The notes under the pieces were generated by a model, which worked only from the letters and a program-made list of their open reading frames with translations, was not told where the DNA came from and did not search any database. From a virus (taxonomy: Duplodnaviria; Caudoviricetes), in the IMG/VR virus record IMGVR_UViG_3300032030_000076, positions 3,038 through 67,037 of that record: a DNA stretch of 64,000 bases; one strand, 5' to 3'. A program made the translations under genes and the position numbers. Shown in pieces: positions 37,138 to 41,973 of the stretch. The stretch's first letter is position 1. The number at the start of each line of letters is the position of its first letter.

Positions 37138-37341
37138 ATGCAAGCGAAAGACTGCCGCTGGCTTGACCGCTACTTCGGGACAGTCTGCCGCAACCAGAAG
37201 ACGCATCCGAACGTGATGCGTCTGGACAACGGCGCGACCGTGTTCTGCGAACCATCCTGCACACGTTGCGCCGGATGCTGCTACGAGCCGATCACGCCGA
37301 ACACGCCAGCGTGGGACGACGACGGGGTGGACAACCAGTGA
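37138..37341 (+). CDS. Cys-rich hypothetical protein (67 aa)
   Basis: GGAGG RBS; several Cys. Confidence 0.5.
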   Translation: MQAKDCRWLDRYFGTVCRNQKTHPNVMRLDNGATVFCEPSCTRCAGCCYEPITPNTPAWDDDGVDNQ

Positions 37342-37844
37342 ACAAATCCTACAACATGAACATCGACACGGGCGAAAAGACATGGCTAACGCCTCCCGAA
37401 ATCATCGATGCGCTCGGCCCGTTCGATCTAGACCCGTGCTGTCCGCCTACGATGCCGTGGCGTACCGCGACGCAGATGGTGCATTGGCCGGACGACGGAT
37501 TGAAGGTGGATTGGACTGGCAAGCGCGTGTGGCTCAATCCGCCATACGGGCGCGAGGCCGTGCCGTTCTTGCGCAAAATGGCGAAAAACAAGACGGGGGG
37601 GGGGATATTGCTCATATTCGCGCGGACAGATACCTCCGCGTGGCAGGACTTGATATTTCCATTCGCCTACGGCATCATGTTTCTGCGAGGACGGCTACGC
37701 TTCCACAAGCCGAACGGAACGCAAGAAGAGACGGCTGCCGCGCCATCTGCGCTCGTCGCGTACTCCGAACAGGACTTTGCCCGTCTGCGCAACGCGGGGC
37801 TTACAGGCGCGTTTTTGCGTGTGTATGAAAGGAGCATTAAATGA
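37338..37844 (+). CDS. Phage N6-adenine DNA methyltransferase (phage Dam-like family), 168 aa
   Basis: TWLTPPEII...FDLDPC, VWLNPPYG catalytic motif, ARTDT...RGRLRF; G10 tract at 37595-37604. Confidence 0.88.
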   Translation: MNKSYNMNIDTGEKTWLTPPEIIDALGPFDLDPCCPPTMPWRTATQMVHWPDDGLKVDWTGKRVWLNPPYGREAVPFLRKMAKNKTGGGILLIFARTDTSAWQDLIFPFAYGIMFLRGRLRFHKPNGTQEETAAAPSALVAYSEQDFARLRNAGLTGAFLRVYERSIK

Positions 37845-38098
37845 ACCAACTCAACCAACTCGCGACCCGCCTGCGCCTAAACGCCGCCAGCATGGAACAC
37901 GGCGAGGCCGAGCACGACATCCGCGCCGCCGCTGATATCCTCGACTCGTTCGCCGACGTAGGAGAGATAGAGTTCACGGAGAACCGCTACTCTCCGTTCC
38001 GCGATATGGCAAGCAAGTGCCTAGTCTCGCCGCGCCGCATCGCGCAGGCGTTCAGCAGGGCGTACCTGCGCGTGGCGGAAAGGATGGAGAAGTCATGA
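37841..38098 (+). CDS. Hypothetical protein (85 aa)
   Basis: AAAGGAG RBS, ATGA overlaps. Confidence 0.6.
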   Translation: MNQLNQLATRLRLNAASMEHGEAEHDIRAAADILDSFADVGEIEFTENRYSPFRDMASKCLVSPRRIAQAFSRAYLRVAERMEKS

Positions 38099-38463
38099 AG
38101 CGGTACAAAATGTCTTCGTTGAATGGCAAGAATGTACGTCTTCACCAGAAGGTCTGGATTCTTGCACATGGCGATATTCCAAAAGGATATGTCGTGCATC
38201 ACGTCAATTTTGACAAACAAGACAATCGAATCGAAAATCTCGTTCTGATGAAAGACGCAGACCATCGAGCATTGCATTCTTGCCGAAGGCATGGCGTTGA
38301 GTTTAGCGGACGGGCATTCACGCGGGAAGAGGCTCTTGCGAGAAAACGCGCAAAGAGCGCAATCTACCTTGCAAAGAACCGTGAACGAATTTATGCAAGG
38401 ATAAATGCCTATCGCCAGCGCAAGCGCGCAGAAGCAAAGGCGCAGAAGAAGGAGGTTTCATGA
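38095..38463 (+). CDS. HNH endonuclease (122 aa)
   Basis: LHQKVW...GDIPKGYVVHHVNFDKQDNRIENLVLM. Confidence 0.85.
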   Translation: MKRYKMSSLNGKNVRLHQKVWILAHGDIPKGYVVHHVNFDKQDNRIENLVLMKDADHRALHSCRRHGVEFSGRAFTREEALARKRAKSAIYLAKNRERIYARINAYRQRKRAEAKAQKKEVS

Positions 38464-41078
38464 AGAGAGAACTCACCTACGCAACGGTATGCAGCGGAAT
38501 AGAATGTTGCTCCGTCGCCTGCATCGGACTCCCGATGCGCCCGGTCTTCTTCAGCGAGATCGAGCCGTTCCCATGCGCCGTCCTCAAGGCGCACTACCCG
38601 AATGTCCCAAACCTCGGCGACATGAGCAAGATTCAAGTATCAGACGATGGGCTGCATATCACGAACGGCAGGGAGAGCATATCGCTCGACGAGCCGTTGG
38701 ACATCCTCGCTGGCGGCACTCCATGCTTCGTCGCGGGGACGATGGTTCTCACGCCGAGGGGATATGTCCCGATTGAGACGCTGAAGGTCGGGGACGAGGT
38801 GGTGTCTGGCACGGGCCACATCCGCAAGGTCGAGGCGGTCGGAAGCAAGATGGCGAAGGTTGGAACCCTGAAGGTTCTTGGCCGTCCCGAAATCGTCTGT
38901 ACACCGAACCATCCGTTCTTCTGCGTCGGCATGAAGCGCGACGACAGGCGCAAGTCCGAAACCTACGCGATGAAGATTCCAGTAGGCGACTACGCGGCGA
39001 CGCGAGCGGACGAGGCGGTCGGGAAGTACGTCGGGCGCATCAACCACATGAGAGGCACGGCGTTCTCGGTGTGCTACCCGAAGTGCGGCGGGGCGACCTG
39101 CGATGACATCATGGAACTCGCTGGATGGTATCTCGGAGACGGGTATATCCGGCGGTTCAAGGGCAAGACGAAGAAGAGTGTCGTGTTCGCCTTGTGCTGC
39201 GAGAAGAAGATCGCGCGGTTCAGGGAGCGGTTCGGCGGCATCGTGAACATCTGCGAAAGCGGCGAAGGCAAGTTGATCGTGAACTGTACGGCGCTTGCGG
39301 ATTGGCTCGTCGAGAACTTCGGGGAGCATTCCGCCGGGAAGCGCATCCCGTACTGGTGCTACGACCGCGAGAACACGCATTGCCTGTTGCGCGGCTACGA
39401 GGCAACGGACGGATGGCACAACAACAACGAGCGGAAGTTCTGCACGGTCTCGCCCGCGTTGGCCTACGGCATAGCGGATTTGATCGGGAACGCATCAATA
39501 TCCCTTCATGTCCCTCCGCCTAAAGGCCATATCCAAGGGCGCGAAATCAACCAAAGACCGTGCTATGTCGTAGCCGTCCCTGTCGGGCGGACAATCAGAA
39601 CCAAATTCATCAACGGACGCTATGCGTCGATAGTAAGGAGCTACAATGGAACAGATGGAACTGTTCGGCGAGTTTACAACATCACCGTCGCAGACGAACA
39701 CGACTACATCGTGTCCGGTCTGTGGACGCACAACTGTCAGGACGTGTCGGTCGCAGGAAAGCGAGCCGGGATGCAGGAAGGGAGCGGAACACGCTCCAGC
39801 CTCGCGTTCGACTTTGTGCGGCTTGCCCGCGAACTGCGACCCAGATGGGTGCTTTGGGAGAACGTGGCGGGAAGTATCGATTCCAAGAACGCCCCCGACT
39901 TTCTGCGTTTCGCCTCTGCGCTTGGGGACTGCGGGTATACTCTCGCGTGGCGCGTGCTGGACGCGCAGTATGTGCGAGTGGACAGCATGGAACGTGCCGT
40001 CCCGCAGAGACGGCGGCGTGTGTGGGTTGTCGGATGTCTTGGAGCCGATGAGTCCGTCCCTGCGCAAATACTTTTTGAGCCCGACTGCGTTGCGGGGCAT
40101 ACTCCGCCGCGCAGACGCGCGGGGCAAGGCTTTGCCTACTCTCTTGCGGGACGCGATAGAGTGGATGCTGGAATGGTGGGAAAGCCAGCCGCAAGAAGAG
40201 ACGGCGGATGCAGAGCATTCATCCCATACGGAACGAGACTCGGCGCAAGTCCAGAAGGGATAACGCAGCCGTTAACCCGCATAGACAGCAAGTTCCAGAA
40301 ATGTATCGCACTCGACGGCGACAAACTGAAGCCGCGCGAAGACCAGCGCAAGGGCGGCAACGGCTTCGGGATAAACGAGAAAGGCGCGGGCTACACCCTC
40401 ACGGGCGTGGACAGGCACGGCGTGGCGTATGAATCGCAAGTTTACGAGAACCACGCGCAGGACAGCCGCGTAAAGACGATAGAGGTCAGCGACACGCGCA
40501 ACCAGAAAGACGGCACGGGCGGGAACAACCTGCCGCTCGTCTGCTTCTCCAAGGTGTCACACCCTTCCGCGCCGAACGGCGAGGGCGAACGCTGGGACGA
40601 GCGCGAGGTGGCGCAGACGCGCAACACGTTCGACAACGGCGAGAAGCGCTGCCAGGAGGTCGTGGTCAGCATGGCGCAGAACACGCGAGACGAGGTGCGC
40701 ATCGTCGGCGGAGACGGGCAGATTGCAGGCGCGTTGCCAGCCGAGCCGGGGATGAAACAGCAGACCTACGTGGTAAGCACCGCCTACAAATTGGACTCCA
40801 CCGCGTCCAACTCCATGAAGAGCGCGAACCCGAACAGCGGCTTCCACGAGACGCATGTCGCGGCTTGCCTCGACACCACAACGCCAGACCCCACGAAAGC
40901 ACAGGGCGGCAACGTGATAATCAGCACCAACTCCAACGGCGAGGACGTCGCCGCCACCCTGACGCGCGACCTCGCCAAGCAGACCGGCGCGCAGCAACAG
41001 AACGGGGGGGGGTACATCCTCACCCGCCGCGAGGATTCTGCCTTGACCGATTCGGGCAGTACGGAGACAGGGAGATAG
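38460..41078 (+). CDS. C5-cytosine DNA methyltransferase, motifs I-VIII plus long variable region, intein-containing (872 aa precursor)
   Basis: CSGIE (I), GGTP-C (IV, split by the intein), WENV (VI), PQRRRRVWVVG (VIII); motifs IX-X are absent from this ORF. Confidence 0.92.
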   Translation: MKRELTYATVCSGIECCSVACIGLPMRPVFFSEIEPFPCAVLKAHYPNVPNLGDMSKIQVSDDGLHITNGRESISLDEPLDILAGGTPCFVAGTMVLTPRGYVPIETLKVGDEVVSGTGHIRKVEAVGSKMAKVGTLKVLGRPEIVCTPNHPFFCVGMKRDDRRKSETYAMKIPVGDYAATRADEAVGKYVGRINHMRGTAFSVCYPKCGGATCDDIMELAGWYLGDGYIRRFKGKTKKSVVFALCCEKKIARFRERFGGIVNICESGEGKLIVNCTALADWLVENFGEHSAGKRIPYWCYDRENTHCLLRGYEATDGWHNNNERKFCTVSPALAYGIADLIGNASISLHVPPPKGHIQGREINQRPCYVVAVPVGRTIRTKFINGRYASIVRSYNGTDGTVRRVYNITVADEHDYIVSGLWTHNCQDVSVAGKRAGMQEGSGTRSSLAFDFVRLARELRPRWVLWENVAGSIDSKNAPDFLRFASALGDCGYTLAWRVLDAQYVRVDSMERAVPQRRRRVWVVGCLGADESVPAQILFEPDCVAGHTPPRRRAGQGFAYSLAGRDRVDAGMVGKPAARRDGGCRAFIPYGTRLGASPEGITQPLTRIDSKFQKCIALDGDKLKPREDQRKGGNGFGINEKGAGYTLTGVDRHGVAYESQVYENHAQDSRVKTIEVSDTRNQKDGTGGNNLPLVCFSKVSHPSAPNGEGERWDEREVAQTRNTFDNGEKRCQEVVVSMAQNTRDEVRIVGGDGQIAGALPAEPGMKQQTYVVSTAYKLDSTASNSMKSANPNSGFHETHVAACLDTTTPDPTKAQGGNVIISTNSNGEDVAATLTRDLAKQTGAQQQNGGGYILTRREDSALTDSGSTETGR
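38724..39734 (+). mobile_element. Intein (337 aa) with LAGLIDADG-like endonuclease region
   Basis: N-terminal CFVAGT, block B TPNHPF, LAGWYLGDG and LLRGYEATDG, block F VYNITV, C-terminal THN followed by Cys. Confidence 0.93.
39646..40263 (+). CDS. Overlapping +1-frame ORF, M.EcoHK31I-beta-like MTase subunit (205 aa)
   Basis: TAAGGAG RBS 5 nt before ATG 39646; LSDVLE...KYFLSPTALRGILRRADARGKALP resembles beta subunits encoded inside C5 MTase genes. Confidence 0.75.
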   Translation: MEQMELFGEFTTSPSQTNTTTSCPVCGRTTVRTCRSQESEPGCRKGAEHAPASRSTLCGLPANCDPDGCFGRTWREVSIPRTPPTFCVSPLRLGTAGILSRGACWTRSMCEWTAWNVPSRRDGGVCGLSDVLEPMSPSLRKYFLSPTALRGILRRADARGKALPTLLRDAIEWMLEWWESQPQEETADAEHSSHTERDSAQVQKG

Positions 41079-41154
41079 CAAGCGCGATGAAAATGAGAGA
41101 CTACAAAGACCACACCGACCTCGTTGTCCACGAGAAGGAAGGAGCGGAAGGTGA

Positions 41155-41973
41155 ATGAGCGCCTACGGAATAAACCCAGCGGAGAGCGGAATGATGATAG
41201 GAACTAATCCGCCGACAGAGGAGTGCGGGCAGACCCTGCGCAAGTCGCCCGGTGGTGAGAATGGAGTCTTGCAGATGCAGAACCAAACTGACATTGAGAC
41301 AGCATACCGAATAAAGATAAACCTTCGCCCTGCCGTGTTGTGCAGTCATCGTTGCGAAGAGTGCAGATTCTGCACCTTTAGCGGCGACGAGGACGGCGGG
41401 GAATACGTTTGGTGCAGGCATCCGCACACGTTGTCGTTGCCCAACTTCTTCAACATCATGGAAGAGAACATGGTGTGCAACCTGTTTGAGCCATGTCCAG
41501 AAGTGCAGACCGTCGGCTTCAAGGCTGGGCAGTCCAAGGACGGCGGACTAGGAGACGAGCGCGAAGTCTCGCCAACACTCTCGCAGATGCGCTACATCGT
41601 CCGCCGCCTCACGCCCATCGAGGCTGAGCGGCTCATGGGGTTGCCGGACGGATGGACCATCCCCACGGGACTACGCCGCTACTTCGGCGCGGACGGAGAG
41701 CCGTCCCCCGAACTGGTGGACGAGTTCGTTGAGCGGTTCGACACCTTCAACGCCATCATGGCCGCATACGAGCACAAGGCCCCGCCGAAAGGCAAGTCGC
41801 GCAAGCAGGTCGCGGAATGGCTCAAGAAGATTTCGGACGCGGAGACTTGCCCGGACAGCCCACGTTACAAGGGGTGCGGAAATGGGCAAGCCACGAACCA
41901 GCCGAGGTGGATCGTGACGAGGCTTCTCGCCATTGGAGAAGGCATCGACCCGTTTACTGGAGAAGAACTATGA
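41155..41973 (+). CDS. C5 MTase C-terminal subunit carrying motifs IX and X (272 aa)
   Basis: YIVRRLTPIEAERLMGLPDGWT (IX) and DSPRYKGCGNG (X); AAGGAG-like RBS region and ATGA overlap. Confidence 0.88.
   Translation: MSAYGINPAESGMMIGTNPPTEECGQTLRKSPGGENGVLQMQNQTDIETAYRIKINLRPAVLCSHRCEECRFCTFSGDEDGGEYVWCRHPHTLSLPNFFNIMEENMVCNLFEPCPEVQTVGFKAGQSKDGGLGDEREVSPTLSQMRYIVRRLTPIEAERLMGLPDGWTIPTGLRRYFGADGEPSPELVDEFVERFDTFNAIMAAYEHKAPPKGKSRKQVAEWLKKISDAETCPDSPRYKGCGNGQATNQPRWIVTRLLAIGEGIDPFTGEEL

What the first reader, a model, noticed from the sequence alone, without database searches (positions are those of the whole stretch)
39634..40263. An intein's DNA supplies the RBS and start codon of an overlapping MTase subunit gene (dual-coding intein)
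A 205-aa +1-frame ORF starts at 39646 behind a strong TAAGGAG. Its first 89 nt lie within the intein's blocks F-G region, and it continues over MTase motifs IV-VIII. Its C-terminal half resembles the beta polypeptide of M.EcoHK31I, which is known to be encoded in an alternative frame inside the alpha gene (similarity recalled, not computed). With the intein removed in silico, the same frame is open back to an ATG at 38647, so the insertion would have cut beta from an ancestral start. The intein seems to have acquired a replacement start. That would make it hard to lose, with its 3' end under selection in two frames. I know of no described case.
Basis: partly seen in the sequence, partly recalled or inferred. 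Interest (0 to 1): 0.9.

Follow-up and report, generated by a model that had tools for sequence, protein, structure and literature searches.

The report
Intein carries start of hidden gene
A selfish protein-splicing element (intein) sitting in a phage DNA-methylase gene also carries, in a second reading frame of its last 89 bases, the ribosome-binding site, start codon and first 30 residues of a conserved hidden gene that overlaps the methylase, so the element repairs in one frame the damage it does in the other.

Summary
A 205-aa +1-frame ORF (39646-40263) starts 5 nt behind TAAGGAG, and its first 89 nt lie in the intein (38724-39734).

The ORF is not a chance frame. It belongs to a large unannotated family ("beta") always nested in the +1 frame of phage C5 cytosine methylase genes. 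The methylase's third codon positions are constrained only where beta overlaps. One phage encodes the beta domain in frame.

The intein claim holds comparatively. In 7 of 8 lineages of inteins at the Pro-Cys site of beta-bearing methylases, the intein's 3' end carries an ATG and a Q-x-x-[LMF]-F-type motif in +1, usually with a Shine-Dalgarno sequence. None of 27 lineages in beta-less methylases does (Fisher p = 1.2e-6). Intein-free relatives start beta with MEQLELF in the N-extein, and the window has lost that start.

The motif fits the bacterial sliding-clamp-binding consensus. Clamp binding is inferred, with only weak model support.

Homology to M.EcoHK31I beta could not be tested, because the sequence was not obtainable. 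No expression data exist.

This scan had already found the nested beta gene and the clamp-like tag on other DNA. The intein part is new.

The parts
38460..41078 (+). alpha: C5 cytosine methylase ORF (872 aa with intein), motifs I-VIII plus variable modules, frame 0
   Evidence: PF00145 at E 3.5e-24 and phrog_116 at E 5.4e-49. Motifs were read in the translation.
38647..38723 (+). N-extein stretch whose +1 frame once held the beta N-terminus. It is now open (MGCISRTAGRAYRSTSRWTSSLAAL) but has no SD and no Q..LF motif, so the ancestral start has decayed.
   Evidence: Intein-free relatives L006 and L004 read MEQLELFS here (alpha ITNGTTRVILD). The window and L009 read ITNGRESISLDEPLD in alpha, with AAC GGC in place of A ATG G.
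38724..39734 (+). Intein (337 aa) between Pro and the catalytic Cys of motif IV. It has Cys1, TPNHP (block B), two LAGLIDADG-like motifs, and VYNITV...WTHN followed by Cys+1.
   Evidence: Hint_2 at E 3.9e-10, above the cut-off. LAGLIDADG_3 is weak at 14.9 bits, below the cut-off. Homologous inteins at the same site are in L007, L009, L005 and L200.
39631..39636 (+). TAG TAA, two stops in the +1 frame that close it just upstream of the beta start
   Evidence: Three-frame translation.
39634..39640 (+). Shine-Dalgarno TAAGGAG for beta. It is made from the intein codons GTA AGG AGC (V R S).
   Evidence: The equivalent SDs are GCAAGGAGA in L005, GAGGAGGA in L009 and GGAGG in L207 and L214.
39646..40263 (+). 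beta: 205-aa +1-frame overlapping gene. The first 89 nt are in the intein, and the rest lies over motifs IV-VIII and the post-VIII tail of alpha.
39652..39666 (+). QMELF, a clamp-binding-motif-like pentapeptide at residues 3-7 of beta, encoded in the +1 frame of intein codons (N)GTDGTVR
   Evidence: The family N-terminal profile is Q-L-[TS]-[FMLI]-[FLWS]. The consensus Q-phi-x-[L/M]-[F/L] is given in PMC11139829.
39735..40017 (+). Predicted disordered Ser/Thr/Pro/Arg-rich linker of beta (residues about 31-124), overprinted on alpha motifs IV-VIII
   Evidence: AlphaFold2 pLDDT is about 50-57 for residues 1-125.
40018..40185 (+). beta C-terminal helical domain (VCGLSDVLE...KYFLSPTALRGILRRADARGKALPTLLRDAIEWML), overprinted on the alpha tail ...AQILFEPDCVAGHTPPRRRAGQGF
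   Evidence: pLDDT is 92-98 for residues 141-180, with helices 128-131, 137-142, 146-159 and 165-180. The same domain is encoded in frame in L120.
41155..41973 (+). Separate ORF (272 aa) with motif IX (VRRLTPIEAERLMGLPDGWT) and motif X (GCGNGQA), the third polypeptide of the methylase
   Evidence: PF00145 C-terminal match at E 0.013, below the cut-off. phrog_16528 and phrog_26324 'DNA methyltransferase' match at E 6e-13 and 4e-12.

Best explanation
The phage methylase gene is dual-coding. Frame 0 makes the catalytic chain alpha (motifs I-VIII). Frame +1 makes beta, which has an N-terminal Q-L-x-L-F-type tag, a disordered linker of about 120 residues, and a helical domain of about 55 residues that belongs to the methylase.

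A homing intein has entered at the Pro|Cys of motif IV. In frame 0 the insertion is healed by protein splicing. In frame +1 it cannot be spliced out and would cut off beta's start and tag. The intein's own 3' end therefore carries, in the +1 frame of its splicing blocks F-G, a Shine-Dalgarno sequence, an ATG and a new copy of the tag (MEQMELF). Beta is thus translated from inside the intein and runs across the junction into the extein.

Shown by sequence and comparison: the ORF, SD and ATG, family membership, selection on the +1 frame, recurrence of intein-borne starts, and decay of the old start. Inferred: that beta is translated and is a methylase subunit (from fusions and the M.EcoHK31I precedent), that the tag binds the host sliding clamp, and that loss of the intein would now cripple beta.
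For: (1) Family. phmmer gave 1274 representatives, mostly 150-220 aa. tblastn gave 83 phage records, and the three hits examined lie under annotated C5 methylases in the +1 frame.

(2) Always nested. 90 of 90 beta-picked loci and 79 of 80 alpha-picked loci carry beta in +1 of an ORF with PCQ and QxRxR. There are no stops in the beta frame, against a mean of 7.4 stops per locus in the third frame.

(3) Selection. Entropy at alpha third codon positions is 1.55 bits upstream, 1.01 in the overlap and 1.66 downstream (Mann-Whitney p = 7e-21). A 5-mer SD is present before the beta start in 58% of loci, against 7% at random positions.

(4) A real domain tied to the methylase. In L120 the beta domain is in frame with alpha, downstream of motif VIII. 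15 'long beta' proteins fuse beta to TRD-IX-X (L006).

(5) Intein starts. The window has TAAGGAG-5nt-ATG MEQMELF. L200 has MEQMDLF. L005 has AAGGAGA-ATG MNKPEQMFLF. L009 has GAGGAGGA-ATG MYQMELF. L204 has MSQMDFAF. L207 has ..WQPELPF. L214 has ..QQMELPF. L226 has ..EQPSLF. These sit at different distances (10-30 codons) from the junction. The count is 7 of 8 beta-bearing lineages against 0 of 27 beta-less lineages, Fisher p = 1.2e-6. Four same-family inteins in other genes have stops there.

(6) Window versus L200. Intein third-position divergence is 42/92 upstream of the beta start and 3/29 in the overlap, p = 4e-4.

(7) The old start. Intein-free L004, L006 and L096 start beta with SD-ATG M(V)EQL(E/S)LF in the N-extein. 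Relics survive in L007 and L204. The start has decayed in the window, L009 and L214.

(8) The tag. It fits Q-phi-x-[L/M][F/L] (PMC11139829), lies in a predicted disordered N-terminus, and occurs in four different alpha contexts.

(9) Complex model. Complex prediction of a prophage beta N-terminus (1-45) with its own host's DnaN gave weak support: score 0.54 against a best control of 0.00. The mark was reached by 58 of 80 solved complexes and 2 of 110 mismatched pairs. At 0.60 or under it was reached by only 7 of those 80 and by both mismatches. The runs agree in at least 42% of contacts, and the partner pLDDT is at least 39. Clamp-peptide complexes have been solved, so this pass may come from memory.

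(10) Literature. M.EcoHK31I beta is encoded entirely in another frame of alpha, is required for activity, and its first 42 residues are dispensable in vitro (PMC2836561).
Against: There is no transcript, ribosome-profiling or peptide evidence for beta here or in any relative examined. The family has no Pfam or PHROG model and no characterised member that I could align.

One beta-bearing intein lineage (L007/L008) has only MGQLELS behind a poorly spaced AGAGGA, and it keeps the old N-extein start. An intein-borne tag is therefore not universal.

Block G (xDGIxVHN) reads QMELPF in +1 under some codon choices, so part of the motif is cheap to obtain and lineage counts may overstate independent invention. 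Lineages were defined crudely, as more than 80% identity over the last 32 intein residues.

The clamp model gives only weak support and used a proteobacterial pair, not this phage and its unknown host. The window's M at the motif's second position is less favourable than L.

The window's methylase may itself be impaired. Frame 0 ends at 41078 after a G9 run, and the conserved ...DYKDHTDLVV module continues in another frame.
Confidence: 0.75

Rival explanations
1. Beta is a real overlapping gene, but in intein-bearing alleles it starts at a downstream Met in the extein (for example MCEWT at residue 109 or MSPSL at residue 135). On this reading the intein-borne SD, ATG and QMELF are a fortuitous open stretch.
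For: Several database proteins begin at MCEWT... or MSPSL... (P0003, P0004, P0010, P0019), although these are gene-caller choices. In M.EcoHK31I, internal Mets at positions 17 and 26 of beta can initiate, and the first 42 residues are dispensable in vitro (PMC2836561). Block G reads QMELPF in +1 under some codon choices.
Against: The count is 7 of 8 against 0 of 27 lineages (p = 1.2e-6). SDs sit at proper spacing. The motif lies at different positions in different inteins (blocks F or G). Third-position divergence drops from 0.46 to 0.10 exactly at the beta start in window versus L200. Two stops lie immediately upstream of the ATG.
Confidence: 0.12
2. The +1 ORF is a non-functional by-product: a long open frame in GC-rich DNA whose apparent conservation merely mirrors conservation of the methylase frame.
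For: Part of the beta sequence is dictated by alpha. GGxPCQ forces EExPA(R/S) in +1, and DLL of motif IV overlaps the tag in the short-N-terminus subfamily (own derivation from the codons). No database annotation goes beyond 'hypothetical'.
Against: Third-position entropy is halved only in the overlap, including within classes of equal alpha conservation. The third frame has 7.4 stops per locus. SD is enriched eightfold. The beta domain is encoded in frame, without overlap, in L120 and is fused to TRD-IX-X in 15 proteins. The tag recurs in four unrelated alpha contexts and inside inteins.
Confidence: 0.03
3. The intein-borne start is functional, but the N-terminal Q..LF motif is not a clamp tag. 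It serves something else, such as docking on alpha, DNA or another host factor, or acting as a degradation signal.
For: The clamp model is only weak support. The window phage encodes no clamp. The second position is M here. Some enterobacterial and Xanthomonas betas lack a canonical motif (L099, L102-L104).
Against: The profile Q-L-[ST]-[LMFI]-[FLW], or its hexameric form, matches the published consensus at every position. It lies at the tip of a disordered arm, as in Hda (PMC11139829). The N-terminus is dispensable for catalysis in M.EcoHK31I. A DnaN-like gene lies 0.8 kb upstream of both methylase copies in G060.
Confidence: 0.35

Closest known systems
M.EcoHK31I alpha/beta (E. coli HK31, YGGCCR; Lee, Kam & Shaw 1995 as described in PMC2836561)
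   Same: A C5 methylase made of two polypeptides. Beta is encoded entirely inside the alpha gene in another reading frame (I recall it as about 176 aa; the paper read here does not give the length). Beta's N-terminal ~42 residues are dispensable in vitro, and both chains are needed for activity.
   Different: Its sequence could not be obtained, so homology is untested. Its beta is said to supply motif IX, whereas here a true motif IX lies in a third ORF (41155-41973). It is a restriction-modification enzyme, not a phage orphan. No intein and no clamp tag are described for it.
Split C5 methylase M.AquI (alpha = I-VIII, beta = IX-X; own knowledge, not checked here)
   Same: The catalytic and C-terminal parts are on separate polypeptides from adjacent, partly overlapping genes.
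   Different: Its overlap is short, with no long overprinted N-terminal arm. It has no intein.
Eukaryotic DNMT1-PCNA recruitment (PMC9690074)
   Same: A cytosine-5 DNA methylase carries a short sliding-clamp-binding peptide, so that it acts on newly replicated DNA.
   Different: It uses a PIP box on the catalytic chain and a eukaryotic clamp. Here a bacterial-type motif sits on a separate, overprinted chain, and binding is untested.
Hda and other beta-clamp ligands with Q-phi-x-[L/M][F/L] motifs (PMC11139829)
   Same: The motif sequence matches. As in Hda, it lies in a disordered N-terminus.
   Different: No methylase is among the listed bacterial clamp partners, and there are no binding data here.
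Homing inteins (Hint plus LAGLIDADG) at conserved catalytic sites
   Same: Insertion is before a nucleophilic Cys in the most conserved motif of the host protein. Blocks A, B, F and G are present. Many C5 methylases carry inteins at this same PC|Q site (33 lineages).
   Different: Known inteins are neutralised in one frame only, by protein splicing. Here the element also encodes, in a second frame, translation signals and a functional-looking peptide for a different host protein. I found no description of this.
Overprinted (overlapping) genes of viruses (PMC8227390)
   Same: A second protein is read from an alternative frame of an existing gene. The overprinted product is largely disordered.
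   Different: Here the overlapping pair appear to be two parts of one enzyme, and a mobile element has become part of one of the two coding frames.

Membership tests
Nested +1-frame 'beta' ORF family of phage-type C5 methylases | Significant sequence similarity to family members over most of the length | tested here: met
   phmmer found 1274 representatives at E <= 1e-3, the best at 6.8e-63 over residues 1-193. The HMM of A1 hits the window at 9e-68.
Nested +1-frame 'beta' ORF family of phage-type C5 methylases | Lies in the +1 frame inside a gene with C5 methylase motifs IV and VIII | tested here: met
   39646-38460 = 1186, which is 1 mod 3. 90 of 90 and 79 of 80 relatives show the same relation.
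Nested +1-frame 'beta' ORF family of phage-type C5 methylases | C-terminal helical domain with VC(S/G)LSD(I/V)LE...(K/R)YFLS..A..GILRRA..RGK.LP | tested here: met
   Invariant and near-invariant columns L128, L132, L144, G151, R155, A156 and P164. pLDDT exceeds 90.
Nested +1-frame 'beta' ORF family of phage-type C5 methylases | Purifying selection acting on the +1 frame | tested here: met
   Third-position entropy is 1.01 against 1.55 and 1.66 bits, p = 7e-21.
M.EcoHK31I beta polypeptide | Sequence homology to M.EcoHK31I beta | not testable with these tools
   PMC306636 is not held. No supplement is held. No database hit bears the name.
M.EcoHK31I beta polypeptide | Encoded wholly within the alpha gene in another frame | tested here: met
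   Beta 39646-40263 lies inside alpha 38460-41078. The architecture is as described in PMC2836561.
M.EcoHK31I beta polypeptide | Required together with alpha for methylation; supplies motif IX | not testable with these tools
   This needs an assay. A canonical motif IX is in ORF 41155-41973, not in beta. Beta's YFLSPTALRGILRRA only loosely resembles motif IX (my reading).
Intein (Hint domain with homing endonuclease) | Hint domain with Cys1, block B TxxH, and C-terminal HN followed by a Cys/Ser/Thr nucleophile | tested here: met
   Hint_2 scores 40.7 bits (cut-off 28.4). CFVAG, TPNHP and THN|C are read in the sequence.
Intein (Hint domain with homing endonuclease) | LAGLIDADG endonuclease domain | tested here: inconclusive
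   LAGLIDADG_3 scores 14.9 bits, below the cut-off of 22.5. The motifs LAGWYLGDGY and LLRGYEATDGW are visible.
Intein (Hint domain with homing endonuclease) | Protein splicing and homing activity | not testable with these tools
   Needs an experiment.
Bacterial beta-clamp ligands (CBM-bearing proteins) | Motif Q-phi-x-[L/M]-[F/L] or Q-phi-x-[L/M]-x-[F/L] | tested here: met
   QMELF lies at residues 3-7. The family profile is and the consensus in PMC11139829. Met at the second position is non-canonical but hydrophobic.
Bacterial beta-clamp ligands (CBM-bearing proteins) | Motif lies in a disordered, accessible segment | tested here: met
   pLDDT is about 50 for residues 1-125.
Bacterial beta-clamp ligands (CBM-bearing proteins) | Binds the hydrophobic pocket of DnaN | tested here: inconclusive
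   Complex prediction gave weak support only, 0.54 against a best control of 0.00, on a proteobacterial prophage-host pair.
C5 cytosine DNA methyltransferase (PF00145) | Motifs I, IV (PCQ), VI (ENV) and VIII (QRRRR) in alpha; IX and X present in the locus | tested here: met
   PF00145 at E 3.5e-24 for alpha. Motifs IX and X are in ORF 41155-41973.

The most novel reading that the evidence does not exclude
Inteins that home into the Pro|Cys site of dual-coding phage methylase genes are co-adapted to a two-frame target. They carry a portable module (SD, ATG and a sliding-clamp-binding tag), written in the +1 frame of their own splicing blocks F-G. On invasion this module instantly rebuilds the N-terminus of the overprinted beta chain. 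The element is then neutral in both frames: by protein splicing in one and by translational re-initiation in the other. Once the old start decays, the host depends on the intein. Beta, through that tag, tethers the phage methylase to the host replication clamp, as a bacterial-virus counterpart of DNMT1-PCNA.
Probability: 0.4. Interest if true: 0.9.

Novelty: new variant of a known kind. Interest (0 to 1): 0.8.

Why it matters
Inteins are regarded as elements that cost the host nothing because they remove themselves at the protein level. That logic fails when the target DNA is read in two frames.

Here the comparative record suggests that inteins solved the problem repeatedly by encoding, in a second frame of their most conserved splicing blocks, the translation start and a functional tag of the other protein. 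This has three consequences.

- It would be the first case known to me of an intein whose DNA is part of a host gene's coding sequence in another frame.
- It gives a concrete route by which a selfish element becomes indispensable, because the old start decays after invasion.
- It provides strong natural evidence that the widespread, unannotated beta gene nested in phage cytosine methylases is translated and that its N-terminal motif matters. Evolution rebuilt that motif at least four times in unrelated sequence contexts.

If the motif binds the sliding clamp, phage methylases would be coupled to the replication fork. That bears on how phages escape restriction.

Tried and rejected
- **Family libraries for beta.** Pfam and PHROGs scans gave no family.
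- **Database names.** Two searches of the 5.8-billion-protein set returned only 'hypothetical' or 'Uncharacterised protein'.
- **Obtaining M.EcoHK31I beta.** The 1995 paper (PMC306636) is not held. The 2009 paper has no held supplement. Homology to the named precedent therefore stays untested.
- **Fold searches.** The window beta model against PDB with Foldseek gave nothing below E = 6. The 'long beta' P0297 model (pTM 0.32) with VIA-align wide gave a best Z of 5.2 on a generic helical hairpin. No structural equivalence to a region of solved C5 methylases could be drawn.
- **Locus search with A1.** The search for related loci with the broad alignment A1 failed, because no stretch was conserved enough. 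It was replaced by A2.
- **Host clamp.** The phage record encodes none, so a prophage and its own host from another phylum had to stand in.
- **Programmed frameshifting.** I considered it as a way to join alpha and beta and rejected it as unsupported. The alpha-N-terminus/beta hybrid proteins switch frame at different places. They look like indels or assembly errors.
- **Literature searches.** Searches for an intein supplying a start to an overlapping gene, and for a clamp-binding motif on a bacterial or phage cytosine methylase, found nothing. The library lacks most subscription journals.
Full report
**1. What is in the window**

The ORF 38460..41078 (872 aa) is a C5 cytosine methylase. PF00145 matches at E 3.5e-24 and phrog_116 at E 5.4e-49. 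Motif IV is interrupted: GGTP|CFVAGTMVL...GLWTHN|CQDVSVAGKR.

The insert spans 38724-39734 (337 aa). It is a Hint-domain intein, with Hint_2 at 40.7 bits against a cut-off of 28.4. It has LAGLIDADG-like motifs that score below the Pfam cut-off. A separate ORF, 41155..41973, holds motifs IX and X.

It runs 39646..40263, 205 aa, in the +1 frame relative to the methylase. TAAGGAG lies at 39634-39640 with 5 nt before the ATG. The +1 frame is closed by TAG TAA at 39631-39636, immediately upstream. Its first 89 nt are intein DNA.

**2. The +1 ORF is a member of a large, selected, unannotated family**

An exhaustive phmmer search found 1274 cluster representatives at E <= 1e-3, 112 at E <= 1e-10, and a best hit of 6.8e-63. 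Most are 150-220 aa. tblastn against GenBank phages hit 83 records. These include phages of Mycobacterium, Vibrio, Caulobacter, Ruminococcus and Escherichia. In the three hits inspected, the match lies under an annotated methylase gene in its +1 frame, as an open ORF.

I built an HMM from 48 members (A1). With it, 90 of 90 loci picked through beta had beta in the +1 frame of an ORF bearing PCQ and QxRxR.

The less biased test used 80 IMG/VR loci picked only by similarity to alpha. All 80 had a beta match, 75 of them full-length, and 79 were in the +1 frame.

On a codon alignment of 73 of these loci, Shannon entropy at alpha third positions was 1.55 bits upstream of beta, 1.01 bits in the overlap and 1.66 bits downstream (Mann-Whitney p = 7e-21). 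The drop persists within classes of equal alpha amino-acid conservation. The third frame carries a mean of 7.4 stops per locus, and the beta frame carries none. A 5-mer Shine-Dalgarno core precedes the beta start in 58% of loci, against 7% at random positions in alpha.

The eightieth locus, L120, is a 252-kb phage contig. It encodes a circularly permuted methylase in which the beta domain (NAGILS...VCGLSDVLEE...ACFGILRRAETRGKELP) lies in the same frame as alpha, about 190 residues downstream of motif VIII, with no overlap at all. In addition, 15 of 334 retrieved proteins are 'long beta' forms in which beta continues in frame into the variable modules and motifs IX-X. The close intein-free relative L006 is one of these.

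The downstream modules can thus hang on either chain. They sit on alpha in the window, L004 and L117, and on beta in L006 and L116. That is what one expects if alpha and beta work as one enzyme. A by-product of alpha conservation cannot explain these facts.

**3. Anatomy of beta**

AlphaFold2 on A1 gives pLDDT of about 50 for residues 1-125. It gives a confident helical domain, with helices at 128-131, 137-142, 146-159 and 165-180, and pLDDT of 92-98 for residues 141-180.

The extreme N-terminus carries a conserved short motif. In the alpha-picked sample the profile is Q-L(72%)-T/S(79%)-F/M/L/I(89%)-F/L/W(67%, otherwise S followed by a hydrophobic residue). This fits the published bacterial sliding-clamp-binding consensus, Q-phi-x-[L/M][F/L] or Q-phi-x-[L/M]-x-[F/L]. 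The best binders are QLxLF, and Hda carries the motif in a disordered N-terminus (PMC11139829; QL(S/D)LF in PMC9690074).

The motif is found in four different alpha contexts:
- over DLL of motif IV, in most IMG/VR loci;
- 10-12 codons further upstream, in L004, L006, L096 and mycobacteriophage Dove;
- after motif IV-V, in enterobacterial forms (MQLTMF);
- inside inteins.

**4. The intein supplies the start**

Intein-free close relatives start beta in the N-extein. In L006 and L004, alpha reads ITNGTTR(V/I)ILD and beta reads MEQLELFS. In L096, beta reads M..VEQLSLF. The intein site lies about 20 codons downstream of that start, so an insertion separates the start and tag from the rest of beta.

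In the window, the N-extein reads ITNGRESISLDEPLD. The A ATG G has become AAC GGC, and the +1 frame there (MGCISRTAGRAYRS...) has no SD and no motif. The new start lies in the intein. The codons GTA AGG AGC TAC AAT GGA ACA GAT GGA ACT GTT CGG (V R S Y N G T D G T V R) read in +1 as **GATMEQMELFG.

Other inteins at the same site do the same thing, at other positions:
- L200 (86% identical at the junction): MEQMDLF.
- L005: AAGGAGA-7nt-ATG, MNKPEQMFLF.
- L009 (37% identical intein, nearly the same extein as the window): GAGGAGGA-8nt-ATG, MYQMELF, only 10 codons before the junction.
- L204: MSQMDFAF.
- L207: GGAGG..ATG, ..WQPELPF.
- L214: GGAGG..ATG, ..QQMELPF.
- L226..EQPSLF.

L007/L008 has only MGQLELS.

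A scan of IMG/VR for intein/motif-IV junctions gave 33 lineages. Six have beta in the extein, and five of these have an ATG inside the intein followed within 14 residues by the motif and open into beta. The other 27 lack beta. None of them has such a start, and their +1 frame closes within 5-69 codons in all but one.

Adding the window-type and L005-type lineages gives 7 of 8 against 0 of 27 (Fisher p = 1.2e-6). Four inteins of the same family in other host genes (a thymidylate-synthase-like gene, a terminase, and two others) have stops in +1 there.

Between the window and L200, third-position divergence in the intein is 42/92 upstream of the beta start and 3/29 within the 89-nt overlap (p = 4e-4).

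Relics of the old start survive in the N-exteins of L007 (SD-GTG, EQLNFSW) and L204 (MMSEQLTLLS). The old start is gone in the window, L009 and L214. That pattern suggests invasions of different ages.

One mechanistic detail stands out. The conserved block G sequence x-D/N-G-I-x-V-H-N, with suitable synonymous codons (GCA GAT GGA ATT GCC GTT CAC AAC), reads Q-M-E-L-P-F-T-T in +1. The splicing block is therefore pre-disposed to encode the tag.

**5. How it most likely works**

Frame 0 yields the alpha precursor, and the intein splices out to restore PCQ. This is inferred from intact splicing residues. Ribosomes also initiate at 39646 and make beta, whose residues 1-30 are intein-encoded. This is inferred from the SD, the ATG and comparative selection.

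Beta's helical domain joins the methylase. This is inferred from in-frame fusions and from the M.EcoHK31I precedent, in which beta is nested in alpha in another frame, both chains are needed, and the first 42 residues are dispensable in vitro (PMC2836561).

The N-terminal tag on a disordered arm of about 120 residues may dock on the host sliding clamp. The only test I could run was a model of a prophage beta N-terminus (residues 1-45) with the DnaN of the same bacterial genome. It gave weak support: score 0.54 against a best control of 0.00. The mark was reached by 58 of 80 solved complexes and 2 of 110 mismatches. At 0.60 or under it was reached by only 7 of those 80 and by both mismatches. 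The runs agree in at least 42% of contacts, and the partner pLDDT is at least 39. Because clamp-peptide complexes are solved, the pass may reflect memory.

Precise loss of the intein from the window allele would leave beta without its SD and tag. The host gene now depends on the element. This too is an inference.

**6. Comparison with the known, and novelty**

The nested beta gene has one published precedent, M.EcoHK31I. I could not obtain its sequence, so membership is untested.

This scan had already noted the nested gene on other DNA several times, and also a QLELF clamp-like tag. I reached both independently here and re-tested them. They are not new to the scan.

What I found no description of, in the scan notes or in the papers searched, is an intein whose DNA is also coding sequence, with translation signals, for a different protein in another frame, and which recurs across intein lineages. 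I rate it a new variant of known kinds (inteins and overprinted genes), with high interest.

**7. Limits**

- No expression or binding data exist.
- Lineage independence was judged crudely.
- Part of the motif comes cheaply from block G.
- One beta-bearing lineage lacks a good tag.
- The window's own methylase has a possible frameshift after the G9 run at 41004-41012.
- The host is unknown.

Noticed in passing
window 40190-40300; L006:446-1468; L116 vs L117 (two copies in genome G060): The variable (TRD) modules downstream of beta are in the alpha frame in some genomes (window, L004, L117) and in the beta frame in others (L006, L116, P0084, P0282, P0297). A small indel after the beta helical domain toggles between 'long alpha/short beta' and 'short alpha/long beta', even between two copies in one genome.
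   Followed up: partly
L120:691-3408 (IMGVR_UViG_3300028888_001839, 252-kb contig): A circularly permuted C5 methylase in one 906-aa frame. Its order is variable modules, IX, X, then I-VIII, the VVFE..G.PPER tail, about 190 residues, and finally the beta helical domain in frame. It is a natural non-overlapping version of alpha plus beta.
   Followed up: partly
proteins P0215, P0218, P0220, P0226, P0261 and 13 others: Eighteen database proteins are hybrids. They run in the alpha frame through motif IV (some through ENV) and then continue in the beta frame to the helical domain, switching at different points. They may be indel pseudogenes, assembly errors or something regulated. P0261 stands for 18 member sequences.
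   Followed up: no
G060:C2:1038980-1039348 and 1792464-1792832 (next to L117 and L116): A DnaN-like sliding-clamp gene (PF00712, E 2e-19) lies about 0.8 kb upstream of both copies of a beta-bearing methylase in one alphaproteobacterial genome.
   Followed up: no
L007:2440-2503 and L204 N-extein: Two intein-bearing alleles still keep the old beta start in the N-extein, now cut off from the rest of beta by the intein. L007 has SD-GTG EQLNFSW and L204 has ATG ATG SEQLTLLS. They look like recent invasions.
   Followed up: partly
window 41004-41158: After a G9 run, frame 0 stops at 41078. Another frame reads ...AMKMRDYKDHTDLVVHEKEGAEGE, a module conserved in relatives (L005 ARDHKDATDLVV; L006 ends ...AEGE), and ends in ATGA at the start of the motif IX-X ORF. 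This could be a frameshift, slippage or a sequencing error. It is the subject of another first-reader note.
   Followed up: no
window 37266-37844 and 38017-38463: A Dam-type N6-adenine methylase (PF05869, E 3e-10) and an HNH_3 endonuclease ORF (E 2e-16) lie directly upstream. The HNH ORF ends at 38463, overlapping the methylase start codon (38460).
   Followed up: no
L009 (IMGVR_UViG_3300031994_000113) vs window: The two phages share nearly identical exteins, including the decayed N-extein +1 frame. Their inteins are only 37% identical and have different beta-start positions. This suggests intein replacement at an already intein-adapted allele.
   Followed up: no
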